Shown here: positions 12,487 to 40,627 of the stretch, piece after piece
How the letters are laid out: each line of letters starts with the position of its first letter
Numbering within the stretch: the first letter of the stretch is position 1
Source: an uncultured Lachnospiraceae bacterium
Lineage (GTDB): Bacteria > Bacillota > Clostridia > Lachnospirales > Lachnospiraceae
Reading direction: 5' to 3'
Assembly: GCA_946547315.1 (NCBI GenBank)
Contig: CAMNOY010000002.1
Coordinates: forward strand, 13,878-77,877
DNA: 64,000 bases
Notes under the pieces: generated by a model
The model's database searches: none
Told to the model about the DNA's origin: nothing
What the model saw: only the letters and a program-made list of their open reading frames with translations
Translations under genes and position numbers: made by a program

Positions 12487-13911
<1,425 letters not shown>

Positions 13912-13921
13912 TTATTCTAAA

Positions 13922-14025
13922 GGTCGCTCGGCCAGTAAGGTGTGTCGCCCATTCAGATCGCCTTCGGCGATAGGGGCTCCACGTGCAGACAGGGTCCCAC
14001 CGCTTCGCGGTTCCCCCTATCAGCC
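13922..14025 (-). repeat. stop-codon-abutting structured repeat, copy A (atpG-atpD intercistronic)
   Basis: Near-identical to 27721-27808 (3 mismatches in ~84 nt by eye). Contains hairpins ATCGCC-TTC-GGCGAT and ACCGC-TTC-GCGGT. Confidence 0.9.
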
Positions 14026-14928
14026 TATTGCCTCAGCGCCACCAATGATCTCTGTAAGCTCCTGCGTAATCGCACCCTGTCTGGCACGGTTATACTGAAG
14101 CTCAAGTCCCGATATCATCTTCTCCGCATTGTCCGTTGCAGAGTCCATAGCCTGCATTCTGGCTCCGTTCTCACTTGCAACTGCCTCGATAAGTGCTCCG
14201 TAAATAAGGCTTGTCACATACTTCGGAATTATGGCATCTAATGCCTCATCCGAATCGGGCTCATAGGTCATAAGAGCTCTTTTCTCACTTTCAACTCCTG
14301 CATCGGGTTTTATGGATTCTTCACCCTCTTTACCTGATACAGACTCGGTAGGCGTACTGTCTTCTCCCAGCGGTAAAAGTTTCTGAAGCTTCGGTACATG
14401 CACAACGGTATTTTTAAATATCGTATAAGCAACGTATATTTCTCCGATCTCCCCCGCCGCATATTTTTTAAGCAGATCACCGGCCAGTTCGGACGCATCG
14501 GAATACAACGGTTCCTCGATCATATCCGAATTCTCGTACACAATCTCATATCCGGATCTTTTTACACTGTCACGGCCCTTTTTACCTATAGCATAAATTA
14601 CCAGTTCATCAGTACTCCAACCGCTCTGTGTTACCAGCTTGGTAATATTGCTGTTATACCCTCCGGCAAGTCCTCTGTTTGAAGTAATGAGAATAACCGC
14701 CTTCTTGTTGCACCCATTAGGCTTCATAAGAGGATGATCGATATATCCCGACTTGCTCATAATCGAAACAATCGTATCATACATCTGCATTGTGTAATTC
14801 TTACTCTGCTCCGCACGCGTCTTGGCTCTTTGAAGCTTGACCGTGGAAACAAGTTTCATTGCCTTGGTAATCTGCTGGGTAGACTGTATACCTGTTTTAC
14901 GTCTTTTGATGTCGCGCATCGACGCCAT
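14020..14928 (-). CDS. atpG: F1 ATP synthase subunit gamma
   Basis: 302 aa, gamma family (MASMRDIKRRK...ITQELTEIIGGAEA). The stop codon lies inside repeat copy A. Confidence 0.93.
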   Translation of the reverse strand: MASMRDIKRRKTGIQSTQQITKAMKLVSTVKLQRAKTRAEQSKNYTMQMYDTIVSIMSKSGYIDHPLMKPNGCNKKAVILITSNRGLAGGYNSNITKLVTQSGWSTDELVIYAIGKKGRDSVKRSGYEIVYENSDMIEEPLYSDASELAGDLLKKYAAGEIGEIYVAYTIFKNTVVHVPKLQKLLPLGEDSTPTESVSGKEGEESIKPDAGVESEKRALMTYEPDSDEALDAIIPKYVTSLIYGALIEAVASENGARMQAMDSATDNAEKMISGLELQYNRARQGAITQELTEIIGGAEAIG

Positions 14929-17840: not shown

Positions 17841-17900
17841 CTATAATTTGTTATCTATTATTAATATTCTAATCTGCATTTACAAGGAGACTCGCCCCCC

Positions 17901-18617
17901 CTATTCAGCATTTATAGCATCAGCGACATATGTCATTGTCAGCATACAGAATACGTATGTTTGGATTGCGCCCGAAAACAAATCGAAATACAAATGTAGG
18001 AATCCCGGCCAGCCCCATGCAATCTTGGAAAGAAGACCATATACAAGAGCCATCATAACCGTTCCCGAAAGAATATTCGCAAACAGACGCAGGGAAATAG
18101 ATACCGGTACCGCAACATCACCTATAACATTGATGGGTGCCCAAATCGGCCATGGATCGCACAAACCTTTTAGAAATCCTCCGACCCCCTGATGTTTTAT
18201 CTTGTTGTAGAAAATCATCCCGAAAGTAATAAGTCCCAGCGGTAAGGTTACTCCGTAATCCGCTGTCGGGGGACGCAGTCCCAAAAGTCCTGAAAAATTA
18301 CTGATAAGTATAAAGCAAAACAGGGTCGATATGTATCCGAGAAACTTCGTGGCACTCTTCCCCATACATCCCGTAATCATGTTATCAAGCATTTCAACAA
18401 TGAGCTCAACTATGTTCTGGAAAGTACCCGGCTTGGCATAAGGGTCTGCATTGACTATCACATGATGCGCGCACAGGCCAAACACTGCAAACAGCAACAG
18501 AACTATCAACAGGCAAACATGTGTTGTTGTAATCCACACAGTCTGGCCGAATATCTGATAAGAGAATATGCCTTTTATCATGAAATTGACATCGGCTGCC
18601 AATAGAACGCTATTCAC
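17901..18617 (-). CDS. atpB: Fo ATP synthase subunit a
   Basis: 238 aa and polytopic, with the conserved SLRLFANILSG motif. GTG start with a GGAGG RBS. Confidence 0.9.
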   Translation of the reverse strand: MNSVLLAADVNFMIKGIFSYQIFGQTVWITTTHVCLLIVLLLFAVFGLCAHHVIVNADPYAKPGTFQNIVELIVEMLDNMITGCMGKSATKFLGYISTLFCFILISNFSGLLGLRPPTADYGVTLPLGLITFGMIFYNKIKHQGVGGFLKGLCDPWPIWAPINVIGDVAVPVSISLRLFANILSGTVMMALVYGLLSKIAWGWPGFLHLYFDLFSGAIQTYVFCMLTMTYVADAINAE

Positions 18618-27648: not shown

Positions 27649-27688
27649 CAAAAAAAGAAAATGCCGACTGTAAACAGCCGGCATTTTC
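27649..27688 (-). terminator. intrinsic terminator downstream of ferredoxin gene/repeat copy B
   Basis: Minus strand reads GAAAATGCCGGCTG-ttta-CAGTCGGCATTTTC followed by TTTTTTT. Confidence 0.8.
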
Positions 27689-27693
27689 TATAT

Positions 27694-27813
27694 CGCGGTC
27701 CCCCCTATCAGCCTTCTTTAAGGAGTGTCGCCCATTCAAATCGCCTTCGGCGATTGGGGCTCCACGTGCAGACAGGGTCCCACCGCTTCGCGGTCCCCCC
27801 TATCAGCCTTCTT
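27694..27813 (-). repeat. stop-codon-abutting structured repeat, copy B (with perfect 25-bp flanking direct repeats)
   Basis: cgcggtcccccctatcagccttctt occurs at 27694-27718 and 27789-27813 (period 95). The core is shared with copies A and C. Confidence 0.92.
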
Positions 27814-27973
27814 CAATAGCGCCTACGGGGCACTGTGCTGCGCATGCTCCACAGCTTACGCACTTATCCGCATCAATTTCATACTTACCGTCTCCTTCGG
27901 AGATAGCACCTACAGGACACTGTCCTGCACATGCTCCGCATGAAATACAGCCGTCTTTGATAACAAATGCCAT
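27803..27973 (-). CDS. 2x[4Fe-4S] ferredoxin
   Basis: 56 aa with two CxxCxxCxxxCP motifs. The ATG at 27973 has a GGAGG RBS. The stop codon lies inside repeat copy B. Confidence 0.9.
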   Translation of the reverse strand: MAFVIKDGCISCGACAGQCPVGAISEGDGKYEIDADKCVSCGACAAQCPVGAIEEG

Positions 27974-37107: not shown

Positions 37108-38877
37108 TCATTTATAATATTCGTCTATAATTTGGAAAGCCTCTTCCGTTCCGAATGCCAGTTGCCAAACTGCGGCTCCGCCTATGTCATGAGCCTTCAT
37201 AACATCAAGCTTCGCCTGAATTGATTTGATGTCTTCAAGCCATATTTTGTTTGTACCTTCCGAAGTTTTCCATTCCGCGTAATTCTGACCGCTTGCCTCG
37301 TCCCACTCCGGCACCGCACCCGCTGCCGTTACGGTTTCGAGCCCCTTTGTCATCGTAAGAGTCTGCATATCCAATATGTTTTCATTGTCATCGACAATCC
37401 AGTATCTGACATAGAATGGGAGTGCATTTACGATTTTCTCCTTTGGAACCTCTTCAAGAGTCTTTTCTATTCCTTCCATGACAAAATCCAGAGATGCCAC
37501 CGAGCCCGCCTCTTCCGACGCAGCCGTATGTTCATCGTATCCCATTATAATCACATAATCGGCAAATATACCCTGTTCCTTGCGGTTATAATGCATAGAG
37601 TATTCCTTGGGAACATAGTTATCCACCGAGACTACAAGGTTTCTGGAATGAGCCTTTAATGAGAATTCCCTTATAAACTGAATATACGACGGTCCCACAT
37701 CTGACGGTACCGATTCAAAGTCTATGTTTATTCCGTCAAGATTATACTGTGCCGCATAGTTTAACAACTGCTCCGTAACATAATCTCTTTTTTCCGGATA
37801 TGGCAATATCTCCCCCAAACTCACTTCCGGATATGTCAGGTTGCTGACAAGCCCCCAGACTTTCACTCCCTTCGCATGGCACGTTTCCACATATGCCGAT
37901 GAAGCAATGGATTCCACCGTACCTTCATTGTCAGCCAGAGCGAACCACGTCGGCGAGATCGTGTTTATATACGGAAGAAATTTTTCATTCTCCTTAAGAT
38001 ACTGTGTCGAATTCTCATTTGTGACATTATGCCACGCAAGTATCACCGGCTGCGTGTAGTCGGCAACAGGGGTTACAGTTATGGGAGCAACATCGGTTAC
38101 AGGGGTTTCCGGACGGTCATACTTCTCCCCCAGGTGTTTAGTTTCAACATATCCTGTAATAAGATCATCCGTTGTGACCTTTACCCATTTTTCGTTTTCC
38201 GAAGCTACGATAACAACCGTATTCCCCTCCCGCAGCTTCTTTAATATGTCACCCTCTTTGTCTGCAATGGTTCTGACAGCTATATCATCCTCTATAACAT
38301 CCGCTACTACATCGGTTCCCCACTCGGTTTTGATACACGCACGGTATGGCTCTCCTCCCCCGCCGTACAGCTTATAATCAAAGTTTGTGAATATCCTGAC
38401 ATAGTCAAGACATACCATCAGCGTATCTCCGTTTTTGTAGCAGATCTGATATCCGGTCTGGGTGCCGTTACCGTCAAGTGTATAATAATTATCCTGAAGA
38501 TTGGCAGCATAGACCCCTTCACCCGTTGTGTACAGGAGACGGTCATCTGTCTGCTCCCAGTAAAAATTCCCGTTATATTTTTCAATAACTGTCTCATAAG
38601 GAATATACAGCTTACCATCTTTTACCGTGATCTTATCATCAGTTACCTCTCCGTTTTCCACAACGGAAGCAGTATCATTAGATGTTGTCTTGAAATAACT
38701 GTTAAGATCAGCCATCCTGCTTGAATAACCCCAGTCATCAAATAACCCGGTACTCTTTGCAACAAGCAGTATAATCCCGATAAGTGCTATCGCTATTACA
38801 ACAGGCAGAACCGCCTGTAGGATTTTTCTTCTGCGTCGGCGCCTGCGCCTTGACTCTTTTGATCCGTTATATGCCAT
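37108..38877 (-). CDS. GH18 family glycosyl hydrolase (YaaH/YdhD-like) with N-terminal TM anchor
   Basis: 589 aa, LDGINIDFE catalytic motif (DxxDxDxE type). GGAG RBS directly after repeat copy C. Confidence 0.82.
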   Translation of the reverse strand: MAYNGSKESRRRRRRRRKILQAVLPVVIAIALIGIILLVAKSTGLFDDWGYSSRMADLNSYFKTTSNDTASVVENGEVTDDKITVKDGKLYIPYETVIEKYNGNFYWEQTDDRLLYTTGEGVYAANLQDNYYTLDGNGTQTGYQICYKNGDTLMVCLDYVRIFTNFDYKLYGGGGEPYRACIKTEWGTDVVADVIEDDIAVRTIADKEGDILKKLREGNTVVIVASENEKWVKVTTDDLITGYVETKHLGEKYDRPETPVTDVAPITVTPVADYTQPVILAWHNVTNENSTQYLKENEKFLPYINTISPTWFALADNEGTVESIASSAYVETCHAKGVKVWGLVSNLTYPEVSLGEILPYPEKRDYVTEQLLNYAAQYNLDGINIDFESVPSDVGPSYIQFIREFSLKAHSRNLVVSVDNYVPKEYSMHYNRKEQGIFADYVIIMGYDEHTAASEEAGSVASLDFVMEGIEKTLEEVPKEKIVNALPFYVRYWIVDDNENILDMQTLTMTKGLETVTAAGAVPEWDEASGQNYAEWKTSEGTNKIWLEDIKSIQAKLDVMKAHDIGGAAVWQLAFGTEEAFQIIDEYYK

Positions 38878-38891
38878 TATTTATCTCCATT

Positions 38892-38998
38892 CCCCTATCA
38901 GCCTATTCAAGGAGTGTCGCGCATTATAATCGCCTTCGGCGATAGGCGCTCCACGTGCAGTCAGGGTCCCACCGCTTTCGCGGTCCCCCCTATCAGCC
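38892..38998 (-). repeat. stop-codon-abutting structured repeat, copy C (acyl-CoA synthetase / GH18 intercistronic)
   Basis: Same core as copies A and B, with about 6 substitutions plus a 1-nt insertion. 14-bp direct repeat cccctatcagccta at both ends (period 95). Confidence 0.9.
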
Positions 38999-40627
38999 TA
39001 AGTTCTGGGCCTCTACCAGTCCCTTGCCTCCGTACAGTTCCCGAAGCTTGGGTTTTTCGATTTTACCGGTAGGATTGCGTGGAATATCCGCAAAAATAAT
39101 CTTATGAGGCCTCTTATATCTGGGCAGTGCCATGCAGAATTCATTCATCTCATCTTCGGTTATAACATAATCCTTCTTCAGTTCAATTATCGCACAGCTT
39201 ACTTCACCAAGCCTCTTATCGGGTATACCGATAACGGCAACATCATGAACCGCCTCATTAGTCCTTATAAAGTCCTCTATCTGCACGGGATAAATGTTTT
39301 CTCCACCGCTTATGATCACATCCTTCTTGCGGTCAACAAGCATAATAAACCCGTCCTCGTCCTCCATAGCCATATCACCTGTATAGAGCCATCCGTCAGC
39401 GAGAACCTCTTTTGTTGCTTTGGGATCATGATAATAGCACTCCATCACACCCGGACCTTTAACTGCAAGTTCTCCAACTTCCCCCTGTTTTACCGGTTTA
39501 CGGTCTTCACCTACTATTGCAGTCTCCCAGCCATACCCGGCTTTTCCTATGCAGCCGACCTTATGGATATTCTCAACTCCCAAGTGTACACAGCCCGGTC
39601 CGATAGACTCGGAAAGTCCGTAATTTGTGTCATACTGATGATTCGGGAACAGTTCCTTCCACTTTTTGATAAGACTTCTCGGAACAGGCTGAGCCCCTAT
39701 GTGCATCAGTCTCCACTGTCCAAGCTCATAGTCGGACAGATTAACCTTCCCGCTTTCTATCGCCTCAAGGATGTCCTGTGCCCACGGAACAAGCAGCCAT
39801 ACTATTGTACATTTTTCCTTTGAAACGGCATCGAGTATGATCTCCGGCGCTGTTCCCTGAAGCAGTACGGCTTTTGATGCCGAATACAGGCTTCCAAACC
39901 AGTGCATCTTAGCTCCCGTATGGTACAGGGGCGGAATAAGAAGAAATACATCGTCTCTTGTCTGACCGTGATGGTTCTGCTCACATACCGCGGAATGCAT
40001 CAGTGAACGATGCTTATGCAAAATAGCTTTGGGAAATCCGGTTGTACCCGACGAAAAATAAATCGCCGCATCGTCCTCGTCCGTAAGAGTAATATCAGGT
40101 TTCACGCTTGAGCAGTTTGCCACAGATTCTTTGTAATCGTCAGCAAATGTAGGACAGTTATCTCCCACATAAATAAGCAGTCTCTTCTTTGAAAGTTCAT
40201 CACATATCTCTTCAATTCTTCCTATGAATTCGGGACCGAATACAAGAACATCTATCTGGGCAAGTTTTGCACAGTACATTATCTCATCGGAAGAGTATCT
40301 GAAATTAAAGGGAACCGCCAATGCGCCGGTTTTGAGGACACCGAAATATACCGGAAGCCATTCAAGGCAGTTCATCATCAGGATTCCTACCTTTTCTCCC
40401 TTTTTTACACCTCTTGAAATCAGATAATTGGCAAAGCGGTTTGCCTTCTCATCAAAGACACTCCATGTTATCTCACGACGATAAGACTCTTTCTTGGTAC
40501 TTTCTATAAGTTCATATTCCTTCCATGTTACTCGCCTGTTTTCCTTGATCTTGGGATTGATCTCAACAAGTGCAACATCATTCGGATACATTGTCGCATT
40601 TCGTTCAAGCAGTTCTGTAATAGGCAT
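38993..40627 (-). CDS. AMP-forming acyl-CoA synthetase/ligase
   Basis: 544 aa, SSGTTGFPKA AMP-binding motif, ANL superfamily. GGAGGA RBS. The stop codon lies inside repeat copy C. Confidence 0.88.
   Translation of the reverse strand: MPITELLERNATMYPNDVALVEINPKIKENRRVTWKEYELIESTKKESYRREITWSVFDEKANRFANYLISRGVKKGEKVGILMMNCLEWLPVYFGVLKTGALAVPFNFRYSSDEIMYCAKLAQIDVLVFGPEFIGRIEEICDELSKKRLLIYVGDNCPTFADDYKESVANCSSVKPDITLTDEDDAAIYFSSGTTGFPKAILHKHRSLMHSAVCEQNHHGQTRDDVFLLIPPLYHTGAKMHWFGSLYSASKAVLLQGTAPEIILDAVSKEKCTIVWLLVPWAQDILEAIESGKVNLSDYELGQWRLMHIGAQPVPRSLIKKWKELFPNHQYDTNYGLSESIGPGCVHLGVENIHKVGCIGKAGYGWETAIVGEDRKPVKQGEVGELAVKGPGVMECYYHDPKATKEVLADGWLYTGDMAMEDEDGFIMLVDRKKDVIISGGENIYPVQIEDFIRTNEAVHDVAVIGIPDKRLGEVSCAIIELKKDYVITEDEMNEFCMALPRYKRPHKIIFADIPRNPTGKIEKPKLRELYGGKGLVEAQNLG

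What the first reader, a model, noticed from the sequence alone, without database searches (positions are those of the whole stretch)
13922..14025. Repeat copy embedded inside the F1Fo ATP synthase operon between atpG and atpD
The atpG-atpD gap is 129 nt and is almost entirely filled by repeat copy A. The other atp intercistronic gaps here are much shorter or overlap. atpD and atpC must be transcribed through the element, so it cannot be an efficient terminator in this orientation. A stable structured insert exactly at the gamma/beta boundary (subunit stoichiometry 1:3) is where an mRNA processing, stabilising or translation-modulating element would have a phenotype. It is equally notable if it is simply a tolerated parasite in an essential operon.
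Basis: partly seen in the sequence, partly recalled or inferred. Interest (0 to 1): 0.6.

Follow-up and report, generated by a model that had tools for sequence, protein, structure and literature searches.

The report
Structured repeat inserted in ATP-synthase operon
The 129-nt gap between atpG and atpD is filled by one copy of a previously undescribed, about 95-nt, strongly folded repeat that occurs about 20 times in this rumen Lachnospiraceae genome. Close relatives lack it or carry broken versions, so it looks like a tolerated insertion rather than a dedicated ATP-synthase regulator.

Summary
The atp operon lies on the minus strand. The atpG-atpD gap is 129 nt (13891-14019), and a repeat copy at 13922-14025 nearly fills it. 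The atpG UGA stop codon lies inside the repeat's first helix.

The repeat is a two-domain, non-palindromic structure with strong covariation: 15 of 27 pairs show double changes and 95% of cells are canonical. It contains an invariant tandem G·A motif. It matches nothing in Rfam, plasmids or phages.

The window holds three intact copies and one internally deleted remnant in the atpB-atpE spacer. The genome holds about 20.

Among close relatives, the atpG-atpD spacer is intact, empty (even with an identical AtpG protein), or reduced to a 5' stub, to domain 2 or to the tail. The atp copy is therefore not under purifying selection, and the stoichiometry-regulator idea is not supported. The "tolerated parasite" reading is.

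Two family-level features remain unexplained:
- In protein operons, copies are always in sense orientation and start at the upstream stop codon.
- In rRNA/tRNA operons, copies are always antisense and abut tRNA 5' ends.

How the element spreads is unknown.

The parts
13936..14025 (-). Core of repeat copy A (domain 1, domain 2 and a short 3' tail), transcribed with the atp operon
   Evidence: The covariance-model hit spans 13930-14028 at 107 bits, E 1.6e-25. The sequence was read.
13985..14024 (-). Domain 1. P1 pairs 14015-14024 (GCUGAUAGGG) with 13985-13994 (CCCUGUCUGC). It encloses a purine-rich internal loop (GGAA / UGGGA) and the P2 hairpin at 14000-14010 (CCGC-GAA-GCGG).
   Evidence: P1 and P2 covary: A-U to C-G changes, U.U to A-U, and an inserted A-U pair in the atpB-atpE copies. 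RNAalifold finds the same helices on a plain MAFFT alignment.
14020..14022 (-). The atpG stop codon UGA, embedded in the 5' strand of P1 and followed in frame by UAG
   Evidence: The ORF end comes and the sequence. The same arrangement is seen in copies B and C.
13942..13982 (-). Domain 2. P3 has an outer stem GUG/CAC, an invariant tandem GA...GA internal loop (13978-13979 and 13945-13946) and an inner stem GCCC/GGGC. It encloses the P4 hairpin at 13957-13971 (AUCGCC-GAA-GGCGAU).
   Evidence: The P3 outer stem covaries (GUG/CAC, GAC/GUC, CGC/GCG) while both GA dinucleotides never change. P3 is 100% paired and P4 98% paired.
13936..13941 (-). Conserved unpaired 3' tail ACCUUA (family consensus WCCUUR)
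   Evidence: Alignments.
13922..13935 (-). Optional tail module CUGGCCGAGCGACC. It is absent from L011 and present 3-4 times in tandem (34-nt period) in L019-L021 and L009.
13888..13905 (-). Native atpD ribosome-binding region: AAGGAG at 13900-13905 and the GTG start at 13888-13890. It is unchanged between occupied and empty alleles.
27693..27815 (-). Copy B. It starts at the UGA stop of a 56-aa ferredoxin gene (27803-27973) and is followed by a 24-nt direct repeat of its own 5' end (27693-27716). An intrinsic terminator follows at 27656-27689.
38892..39001 (-). Copy C. It starts at the UGA stop of the acyl-CoA synthetase gene (38993-40627) and is followed by a 14-nt direct repeat of its 5' end (38892-38906). 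The next gene starts at 38877.
17869..17913 (-). Internally deleted remnant of a fourth copy in the atpB-atpE spacer (AAAUGCUGAAUAGGGGGG|GCGAGUCUCCUUGUA plus a 12-nt repeat-like stretch). The atpB stop UAG (17901-17903) lies inside it.
   Evidence: The full-length version sits at the same site in L024/L025, whose AtpG is identical to the window's. The effect on the AtpB C-terminus is shown.

Best explanation
Copy A belongs to a family of about 90-105-nt, non-palindromic, two-domain structured interspersed repeats. So far the family has been found only in a clade of rumen and gut Lachnospiraceae, at about 20 copies per genome.

The copy was inserted directly at the atpG stop codon. It is transcribed as part of the atp mRNA, where it should fold into two independent hairpin domains. 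The native atpD ribosome-binding site downstream is left intact.

At this locus it behaves as a tolerated, selectively near-neutral insertion, not as a conserved regulator of gamma/beta stoichiometry. Any effect on the atp mRNA, such as a barrier to exonucleases or a processing site, would be a by-product.

At the family level, several features are conserved: the helices, which change only by compensating substitutions; the strand-specific motifs (tandem G·A, G·U pairs, GNA loops); and the 5' motif AAUGCUGAUAG, which carries two in-frame stop codons. I infer from this that only structure-competent copies propagate, through a strand-specific single-stranded DNA or RNA intermediate. The 5' motif lets a copy land at or in the last codons of a gene without extending the protein.

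Shown: the repeat family, its structure, read-through transcription, presence/absence and decay among relatives, and stop-codon donation at atpB.
Inferred: selfish spread and its mechanism.
For: Family and structure:
- Three intact copies lie in the window and 18 or more in related loci.
- 95.4% of cells form canonical pairs, 15 of 27 pairs show double-sided changes, 0 of 500 shuffles reach this, and slid controls give 30-45%.
- RNAalifold gives the same fold independently.
- G·U outnumbers A·C in pairs 25 to 4, so one strand is the structured one.
- The minus-strand RNA folds at -47 kcal/mol (z = -2.7). The plus strand folds at -38.5 (z = -0.8).

Copy number: about 20 per genome. Metagenome contigs break at the element, and depth over it is about 10 times the flanks.

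State of the atpG-atpD spacer in relatives:
- Intact in the window, L024 and L025 (AtpG 100% identical), in L011 (93%) and in L009.
- Empty, with a 41-nt spacer, in L012/L013. These encode the same AtpG protein as L011, and 9 further assemblies show the empty form.
- Tail fragment only in L018 (94%).
- A divergent subtype with 3-4 tandem tail modules in L019-L021 (91%). The module number differs between L019 and L020.
- A 5' stub only in L014/L015 (89%).
- A degenerating domain 2 only in L022/L023 (88%).
- Nothing in L016/L017 (86%).
- At atpB-atpE the window has a deleted remnant, whereas L024/L025, whose AtpG is identical to the window's, have a full copy.

Other evidence:
- Read-through: an RNA contig spans atpG, the spacer and atpD, and no terminator or promoter is predicted.
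- The atpD SD stays accessible, with predicted unpaired probability 0.65-0.86 with the element and 0.88-0.93 without.
- Stop-codon donation: AtpB ends ..DAIGDS* or ..DAIGDTE* without the element and ..DAINAE* or ..DAINAD* with it. The last codons are the element's own 5' motif.
- In 11 of 11 copies with an upstream ORF, the stop codon lies within -11 to +10 nt of the element start.
Against: - No transposase, recombinase or reverse-transcriptase gene was found next to any copy, so mobility rests only on presence/absence.
- All atpG-atpD copies could descend from one old insertion followed by losses. I have no proven recent insertion.
- There are no terminal inverted repeats and no fixed-length target duplication. 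The flanking direct repeats of 12, 14 and 24 nt are variable and are absent at atpG-atpD.
- Orientation is strictly sense in about 13 protein-operon sites and strictly antisense in 4-8 rRNA/tRNA sites. It does not follow replication direction. A purely selfish element with random insertion does not predict this, and it hints at selection acting on the RNA.
- Expression effects were not measured.
Confidence: 0.68

Rival explanations
1. The element is a cis-acting mRNA element at the gamma/beta boundary that raises or lowers atpD-atpC expression relative to atpG, through processing, stabilisation or translational control, to help set the 1:3 stoichiometry.
For: It lies exactly between atpG and atpD, is co-transcribed and is very stable. 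In the window's copy the tail can pair weakly with the atpD SD region in the minimum-free-energy fold. Known repeats such as REP and BOX can alter the stability of neighbouring cistrons (PMC3049150; REP in malE-malF, from my own knowledge).
Against: Close relatives with the same or nearly the same ATP synthase have no element or only fragments. The same element occurs at many unrelated junctions and in a 3' UTR. Copies also sit at atpB-atpE and, weakly, at atpA-atpG, where the stoichiometric logic differs. SD accessibility is hardly affected, and the tail that pairs with the SD is not conserved (L011 lacks it).
Confidence: 0.08
2. The family is a host-useful RNA module rather than a parasite. 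In mRNAs the sense copy sits at the stop codon and acts on termination or mRNA decay. In rRNA/tRNA operons the antisense copies fill whole tRNA spacers, so that RNase P and 3' processing release an abundant anti-element RNA. That RNA can pair with the sense copies and couple the decay of atp, ribosomal-protein, flagellar and ferredoxin mRNAs to rRNA/tRNA transcription.
For: Orientation follows transcript type, not replication strand. Antisense copies abut tRNA 5' ends within 0-4 nt and fill the spacers. The window's own genome carries both kinds. Sense and antisense copies share perfect stretches of 18 and 23 nt or more. Unpaired nucleotides are conserved across subtypes (GA, AC linker, WCCUU). 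Spacer-derived regulatory RNAs have a precedent in the E. coli 3'ETS-leuZ sponge (my own knowledge).
Against: Individual mRNA copies decay freely, which argues against locus-level function. Both RNAs are tightly self-folded, which disfavours pairing. No strand-specific expression data exist. The independent tRNA-linked sites are few, 4 to 8.
Confidence: 0.12
3. The structure works as single-stranded DNA, not RNA. It would be a recognition site for an HUH-type transposase (as for REP/RAYT or IS200/IS605 ends) or a recombinase (as for integron attC), or a host site used during replication.
For: It has two sub-terminal GC-rich hairpins with GNA triloops closed by C-G (GCGAAGC-type), tandem G·A and G·T pairs. 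All of these are as stable in DNA as in RNA (my own knowledge). There are no inverted terminal repeats and no fixed target duplication. One allele looks cleanly empty. Partial direct repeats of the 5' end could be att-like cores or leftovers of tandem integration. Others have noted that bioinformatics cannot separate RNA motifs from ssDNA motifs (PMC5737381, PMC11109978).
Against: Orientation is not consistent with the replication strand. The structured strand is the G-rich strand in protein operons and the C-rich strand in rRNA/tRNA operons, unlike IS200/IS605-type elements. No cognate enzyme gene was seen in about 450 kb of fetched flanks. The hairpin stems covary freely, so recognition would have to be mostly by shape.
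Confidence: 0.12

Closest known systems
BOX elements of Streptococcus pneumoniae (boxA-boxB(n)-boxC), and RUP and SPRITE repeats (PMC3049150)
   Same: Small, non-coding and multi-copy. Located in intergenic regions and co-transcribed with flanking genes. Predicted to fold stably. Modular, with a variable number of an internal or terminal module (here the duplicated domain 2 and 0-4 tail modules). Variably present between strains. No enzyme encoded.
   Different: No sequence similarity. BOX and RUP have terminal inverted repeats and are enriched between convergent genes. This element has no inverted termini, sits inside operons in a fixed orientation, starts at the stop codon and has an invariant tandem G·A motif.
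REP/BIME elements with RAYT transposases (PMC2817692)
   Same: Extragenic, transcribed and structured repeats, often just after stop codons inside operons. They can affect the stability of the upstream cistron. Recognition is thought to be strand-specific and to act on ssDNA.
   Different: REPs are 20-40-nt single imperfect palindromes with a GTAG head, often in inverted pairs (REPINs) and at hundreds of copies. This element is about 95 nt with two different domains, never appeared in inverted pairs in the data, and no RAYT gene was seen.
IS200/IS605-derived non-autonomous elements (palindrome-associated transposable elements)
   Same: Asymmetric ends with sub-terminal hairpins, no terminal inverted repeats, no target duplication, a conserved short motif at the left junction, and precise-looking empty sites.
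   Different: Those elements are oriented relative to the replication fork, and this family is not. No TnpA or TnpB gene was nearby. The two hairpins sit inside larger helices (P1, P3) that also covary.
'Mobile/repeat sequence candidates' among structured-motif surveys (PMC11109978)
   Same: A structured motif with covariation, dozens of copies per genome and no consistent gene association. It could act as RNA or as DNA.
   Different: That category is recognised partly by inconsistent orientation relative to genes. Here orientation is strictly consistent within each class of transcription unit.

Membership tests
Any Rfam 15 family (riboswitches, ribozymes, leaders, sRNAs) | Match to a curated covariance model | tested here: not met
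   No hit at gathering thresholds in the 64-kb window. At E<=10 on 13850-14080 there were only two chance C/D-box snoRNA matches of 13 bits.
Intrinsic terminator | GC-rich hairpin followed by a U-run | tested here: not met
   No terminator-like site on either strand in 13700-14200. Copy B is followed by a separate, genuine terminator.
MITE (miniature inverted-repeat transposable element) | Terminal inverted repeats | tested here: not met
   The 5' end AAUGCUGAUAGG and the 3' end GACACWCCUUA are not complementary. P1 closes domain 1 only. The repeat finder reports no inverted pair at the element.
MITE (miniature inverted-repeat transposable element) | Fixed-length target-site duplication | tested here: not met
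   Flanking direct repeats are 24, 14 and 12-13 nt and consist of the element's own 5' sequence. There is none at atpG-atpD when occupied and empty alleles are compared.
REP/BIME (RAYT-mobilised) | Single 20-40-nt imperfect palindrome with a conserved GTAG-type head, commonly in inverted pairs | tested here: not met
   The element is about 95 nt with two domains. All window copies are in the same orientation and none is paired.
REP/BIME (RAYT-mobilised) | A cognate RAYT gene flanked by the repeats | not testable with these tools
   Whole genomes could not be scanned. None was seen in the fetched flanks.
IS200/IS605-derived element | Orientation tied to the replication strand (active strand on the lagging-strand template) | tested here: not met
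   The structured strand is the G-rich strand in 7 protein-operon loci (the window and six fetched loci) and the C-rich strand in 4 rRNA/tRNA loci.
IS200/IS605-derived element | Sub-terminal hairpins, no inverted repeats, no duplication, conserved motif at the left junction | tested here: inconclusive
   The architecture is compatible, but there is no enzyme and no defined cleavage sites.
Gene-specific cis-regulatory RNA (riboswitch or ribosomal-protein-type leader) | Consistent association with one gene family and conservation at orthologous loci | tested here: not met
   The neighbours are unrelated, and the atp copy is lost or decayed in relatives.
Bacterial SECIS (UGA recoding) | Hairpin after an in-frame UGA inside a selenoprotein gene, with translation continuing | tested here: not met
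   The UGA is followed at once by UAG. Other copies use UAA or UAG stops before or within the element.
Kink-turn | Three-nucleotide bulge followed by tandem G·A/A·G between a canonical and a non-canonical helix | tested here: inconclusive
   The 3' strand GCGG-UGG-GA-CCC fits. The opposite strand has two extra purines and varies (GGAA, GGGA, GCGA, AUA). The tandem GA in P3 is symmetric, with no bulge.

The most novel reading that the evidence does not exclude
The family is not just junk but a two-sided RNA system. Sense copies are placed at stop codons of highly expressed operons. Antisense copies make up entire tRNA/rRNA spacers, so ordinary tRNA processing releases a precise, abundant anti-element RNA that pairs with the mRNA copies. 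A second possibility is that P1 acts as an internal guide that selects insertion sites resembling GCUGAUAG. Either would be a new kind of repeat-based regulatory or mobility logic in bacteria.
Probability: 0.12. Interest if true: 0.75.

Novelty: new variant of a known kind. Interest (0 to 1): 0.42.

Why it matters
For the atp operon the result is deflationary. The insert is not a stoichiometry device, and annotators should treat the long atpG-atpD spacer as a repeat insertion.

The family itself is worth recording:
- It is absent from Rfam and from the papers I could search, and its fold is well supported.
- It donates stop codons to upstream genes and has changed the last residues of AtpB.
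- It repeatedly colonises the most highly expressed operons: atp, S10 ribosomal proteins, flagellar rod, ferredoxin, and rRNA/tRNA.
- It breaks metagenome assemblies at these loci.
- It obeys an orientation rule (sense in mRNAs, antisense in stable-RNA operons) that neither replication-linked transposition nor random insertion explains.

That rule, together with natural occupied and empty alleles in otherwise near-identical strains, gives a ready-made test of what such repeats do to operon expression.

Tried and rejected
- Rfam at gathering and permissive thresholds gave nothing. There are no tRNA or tmRNA genes in the window.
- Known ribozyme cores. CUGAUAG resembles the hammerhead CUGAUGA, but there is no GAAA and no three-way core, and no twister, pistol, hatchet or HDV match in Rfam. 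Rejected.
- SECIS or recoding at UGA. Rejected because a tandem UAG follows and other copies use other stop codons.
- Canonical kink-turn in domain 1. Only one strand fits.
- Mimicry of the 16S rRNA 3' end (helix 45 and the anti-SD sequence). The resemblance to UAGGGGAACC and CACCUCCUUA is superficial against Firmicutes 16S as I recall it, and I dropped it untested.
- Tail-SD sequestration. The tail is not conserved and predicted SD accessibility is barely affected.
- The element as a displaced or odd 5S rRNA in loci lacking 5S. No 5S signal on either strand.
- Replication-strand explanation of orientation. Contradicted by GC skew.
- Plasmid and phage collections and viral contigs gave no match.
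- My metagenome scan used a pattern with one N too many (7 instead of 6). It returned only a one-base-longer variant (L010).
- RNA end-mapping was impossible because all RNA runs were available only as assembled contigs.
- Literature searches found no description of this element.

Full report
**1. The observation**

The window's atp operon is on the minus strand, in the order atpB-E-F-H-A-G-D-C. atpG ends at 14020 and atpD starts with GTG at 13890, which leaves a 129-nt spacer (13891-14019). The other gaps are 72 nt (atpB-atpE), 35 nt, an overlap, 16 nt, 30 nt and 9 nt.

The others lie at about 27700-27815 and 38892-39001, all on the minus strand. A 55-nt exact stretch is unique in the window and absent from 100 shuffles. 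A covariance model built from 12 copies scores the window copies at 107-109 bits, E about 1e-25.

In the Logan contigs of the organism's own assembly (run X1), summed k-mer depth over the 5' domain is about 350 against about 18 in the flanks, and 21 contig pieces align. That gives about 20 copies per genome of roughly 2.3 Mb. In rumen metagenomes, depth over the core is about 10 times the flanks and contigs break there.

**2. Anatomy**

Read on the minus strand, which is the atp mRNA sense, the element has this layout:

(A)AUG-CUGAUAGGG / GGAA / CCGC-GAA-GCGG / UGGGA / CCCUGUCUGC / AC / GUG-GA-GCCC / CU / AUCGCC-GAA-GGCGAU / CUGAAU / GGGC-GA-CAC / ACCUUA

- Domain 1 (13985-14024) is a 10-bp helix, P1. 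It closes a purine-rich internal loop and a short hairpin, P2.
- Domain 2 (13942-13982) is a helix, P3, interrupted by a symmetric tandem GA/GA loop. It encloses hairpin P4.
- In copy A an optional 14-nt tail module (13922-13935) follows.

This strand folds at -47 kcal/mol (z = -2.7). The complement folds at -38.5 (z = -0.8).

**3. Relatives and covariation**

A pattern scan of one genome per species returned nine loci, all from uncultured rumen or reindeer Lachnospiraceae. A faulty pattern of mine spoiled the single metagenome scan, which gave only L010. Model searches of these loci, and of atp loci fetched through AtpG homologues, raised the set to more than 25 copies. These include divergent subtypes.

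On 21 distinct copies:
- 95.4% of cells form standard pairs (shuffles give 80.9%, slid controls 30-45%).
- 15 of 27 pairs show changes on both sides.
- 0 of 500 shuffles reach the observed values.

The outer stem of P3 switches between GUG/CAC, GAC/GUC and CGC/GCG, while the two GA dinucleotides, the AC linker and the flanking G-C pairs never change. The atpB-atpE copies carry one extra A in the 5' strand of P1 and one extra U opposite it. RNAalifold recovers the same helices on an ordinary MAFFT alignment. Pairs valid only on this strand (G·U) outnumber those valid only on the complement (A·C) by 25 to 4.

The element is therefore a genuine conserved single-strand structure of one defined strand. 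These data cannot say whether that strand acts as RNA or as DNA.

**4. It is not a known family**

- Rfam 15 gives nothing at gathering thresholds and only two 13-bit chance hits at E<=10.
- There are no matches in plasmid, phage or viral collections.
- Full-text searches found no description.
- It has no terminal inverted repeats, no fixed target duplication, no terminator and no promoter.

**5. Comparison of the atpG-atpD spacer in relatives**

AtpG homologues led to atp loci from strains at 86-100% AtpG identity. The spacers were read.

| Loci | AtpG identity to window | atpG-atpD spacer |
|---|---|---|
| Window, L024, L025 | 100% | Domains 1 and 2 plus one tail module |
| L018 | 94% | Fragment of the tail only |
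| L011 | 93% | Domains 1 and 2, no tail module |
| L012, L013 | 93%, same AtpG protein as L011 | Clean 41-nt spacer, GGCUGA\|ACAUAUU...; 9 more assemblies of this form were not shown |
| L019-L021 | 91% | Divergent subtype plus three or four tandem 34-nt tail modules; the number differs between L019 and L020 |
| L014, L015 | 89% | 5' stub only (GCAGAUAGGGAAU) |
| L022, L023 | 88% | Degenerating domain 2 only |
| L016, L017 | 86% | Nothing (28-nt spacer) |
| L009 (UBA3762) | not measured | Copy with a 40-nt insertion in the P2 loop and three tail modules |

At atpB-atpE the window holds an internally deleted remnant (17869-17913). L024 and L025, whose AtpG is identical to the window's, hold a full copy.

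Independent deletions in about half of the lineages show that the copy in the atp operon is not maintained by selection. The native atpD Shine-Dalgarno sequence and start codon are unchanged between alleles. Predicted SD accessibility is 0.65-0.86 with the element and 0.88-0.93 without.

An RNA-run contig of 6 kb from a close relative spans atpG, a 142-nt variant spacer and atpD. This is consistent with read-through, with the caveat that metatranscriptomes can contain DNA.

**6. Family-level regularities**

(a) Position. In all 11 copies that have an upstream ORF on the same strand, that ORF's stop codon lies between -11 and +10 nt of the element start. Often it is the UGA or UAG of the motif CUGAUAG. 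That frame carries two stop codons and the other two frames carry none. Where empty alleles are known (atpG-atpD, atpB-atpE), the insertion sits at position 0 of a 41-46-nt spacer. AtpB ends ..DAIGDS* or ..DAIGDTE* in element-free relatives and ..DAINAE* or ..DAINAD* in carriers. Its last three codons and stop are therefore the element's own 5' motif.

(b) Hosts. Occupied sites are in highly expressed units:
- three atp spacers
- rplW-rplB
- promoter-flgB-flgC-(fliE), with three copies
- an nfnAB-like pair
- a ferredoxin 3' UTR

(c) Orientation. About 13 independent protein-operon sites are all in sense orientation. In rRNA/tRNA operons (L001, L002, L003, L007) all copies are antisense to the tRNAs. 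They fill the whole spacer, and their 5' ends lie within 0-4 nt of the tRNA 5' end on the other strand. GC skew shows that the structured strand is the G-rich (leading) strand in protein operons and the C-rich strand in rRNA/tRNA operons. Replication direction therefore does not set orientation. The window's own genome also carries the antisense copy downstream of 23S rRNA.

(d) Flanks. Copies B, C and the atpB-atpE copies are followed by a partial direct repeat of the element's 5' end, of 24, 14 and 12-13 nt. Domain 2 and the tail modules can be tandemly duplicated. Orthologous copies can differ by whole-domain swaps, as in L010 against L011. This points to recombination between copies and to tandem or nested integration followed by deletion.

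**7. Interpretation**

For the finding as stated, the best explanation is a tolerated, co-transcribed insertion of an interspersed structured repeat (confidence about 0.68). The specific idea of a gamma/beta stoichiometry regulator is not supported (about 0.08).

For the family as a whole I favour a selfish element that propagates through a strand-specific, structure-dependent intermediate. Its stop-codon-bearing 5' end would make insertion at gene ends harmless. I could not identify the mobilising enzyme or prove a recent insertion.

The strict and opposite orientation in mRNA and stable-RNA operons, and the abutment to tRNA 5' ends, remain unexplained. They keep two other readings open. One is an RNA-level function, including a sense/antisense relationship with spacer RNAs released by tRNA processing (about 0.12). 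The other is a single-stranded-DNA function (about 0.12).

**8. Comparison with known systems**

The closest analogues are pneumococcal BOX, RUP and SPRITE repeats (PMC3049150), REP/BIME-RAYT systems (PMC2817692), IS200/IS605-derived elements, and the "mobile/repeat sequence candidates" of structured-motif surveys (PMC11109978).

The element shares their small size, multi-copy state, co-transcription, structure and variable presence. It fails the defining features of each specific family: inverted termini, fixed duplications, a GTAG-headed palindrome, and replication-linked orientation. I therefore file it as a new variant within the general class of bacterial structured interspersed repeats. 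It is not a member of any named family.

Noticed in passing
window 17869-17913 (minus strand): The atpB-atpE spacer holds an internally deleted remnant of another copy (a 5' 17 nt joined to a 3' 15 nt, plus a repeat-like AAUGCAGAUUAG). The atpB stop codon lies inside it. Strains with identical AtpG (L024/L025) have the full copy.
   Followed up: yes
window 27803-27973 (minus strand): A 56-aa 2x[4Fe-4S] ferredoxin gene, too short for the default ORF list, lies upstream of copy B. Its UGA stop is inside the element. An intrinsic terminator (27656-27689) follows the element.
   Followed up: partly
window 27693-27716 and 38892-38906 (minus strand): Copies B and C are each followed by a partial direct repeat of their own 5' end. 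The repeat is 24 nt and ends in the P2 loop for B, and 14 nt for C. The variable length suggests truncated tandem copies or att-like cores rather than target-site duplications.
   Followed up: partly
L001:3850-4700, L003:3050-4075, L007:1-1110, L002:1-545: In related MAGs the 23S rRNA gene is followed by antisense element copies and tRNA genes. No 5S rRNA is detectable in between, even at E<=5, so the 5S gene must lie elsewhere in these genomes.
   Followed up: partly
L004:5700-6836: In a flagellar rod operon, a near-consensus sigma-70-like promoter (TTGATA-17-TACAAT) sits directly upstream of one copy. Further copies separate flgB, flgC and the next gene. The middle copy lacks hairpin P2 entirely.
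   Followed up: partly
L019:5830-5970 vs L020:5834-5940; L009:4460-4560: The 34-nt tail module (UAAUGUGUCGACACACCUUACUGACCGAGCGACC) forms tandem arrays whose copy number differs between strains with the same AtpG protein.
   Followed up: no
L012:9895-9984 (atpA-atpG spacer) and L008:6857-6946: Weak model hits (13-14 bits) mark a much more divergent two-hairpin insert. It is present in the atpA-atpG spacer of L012/L013 and absent from the window and L011. It may be a distant relative of the family or a different repeat.
   Followed up: no
window 1-64000: GC skew is strongly negative throughout (-0.08 to -0.16) and nearly all long ORFs are on the minus strand. The window therefore lies on one replichore with genes co-oriented with replication. 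dnaB lies a few kb upstream of the atp operon.
   Followed up: partly
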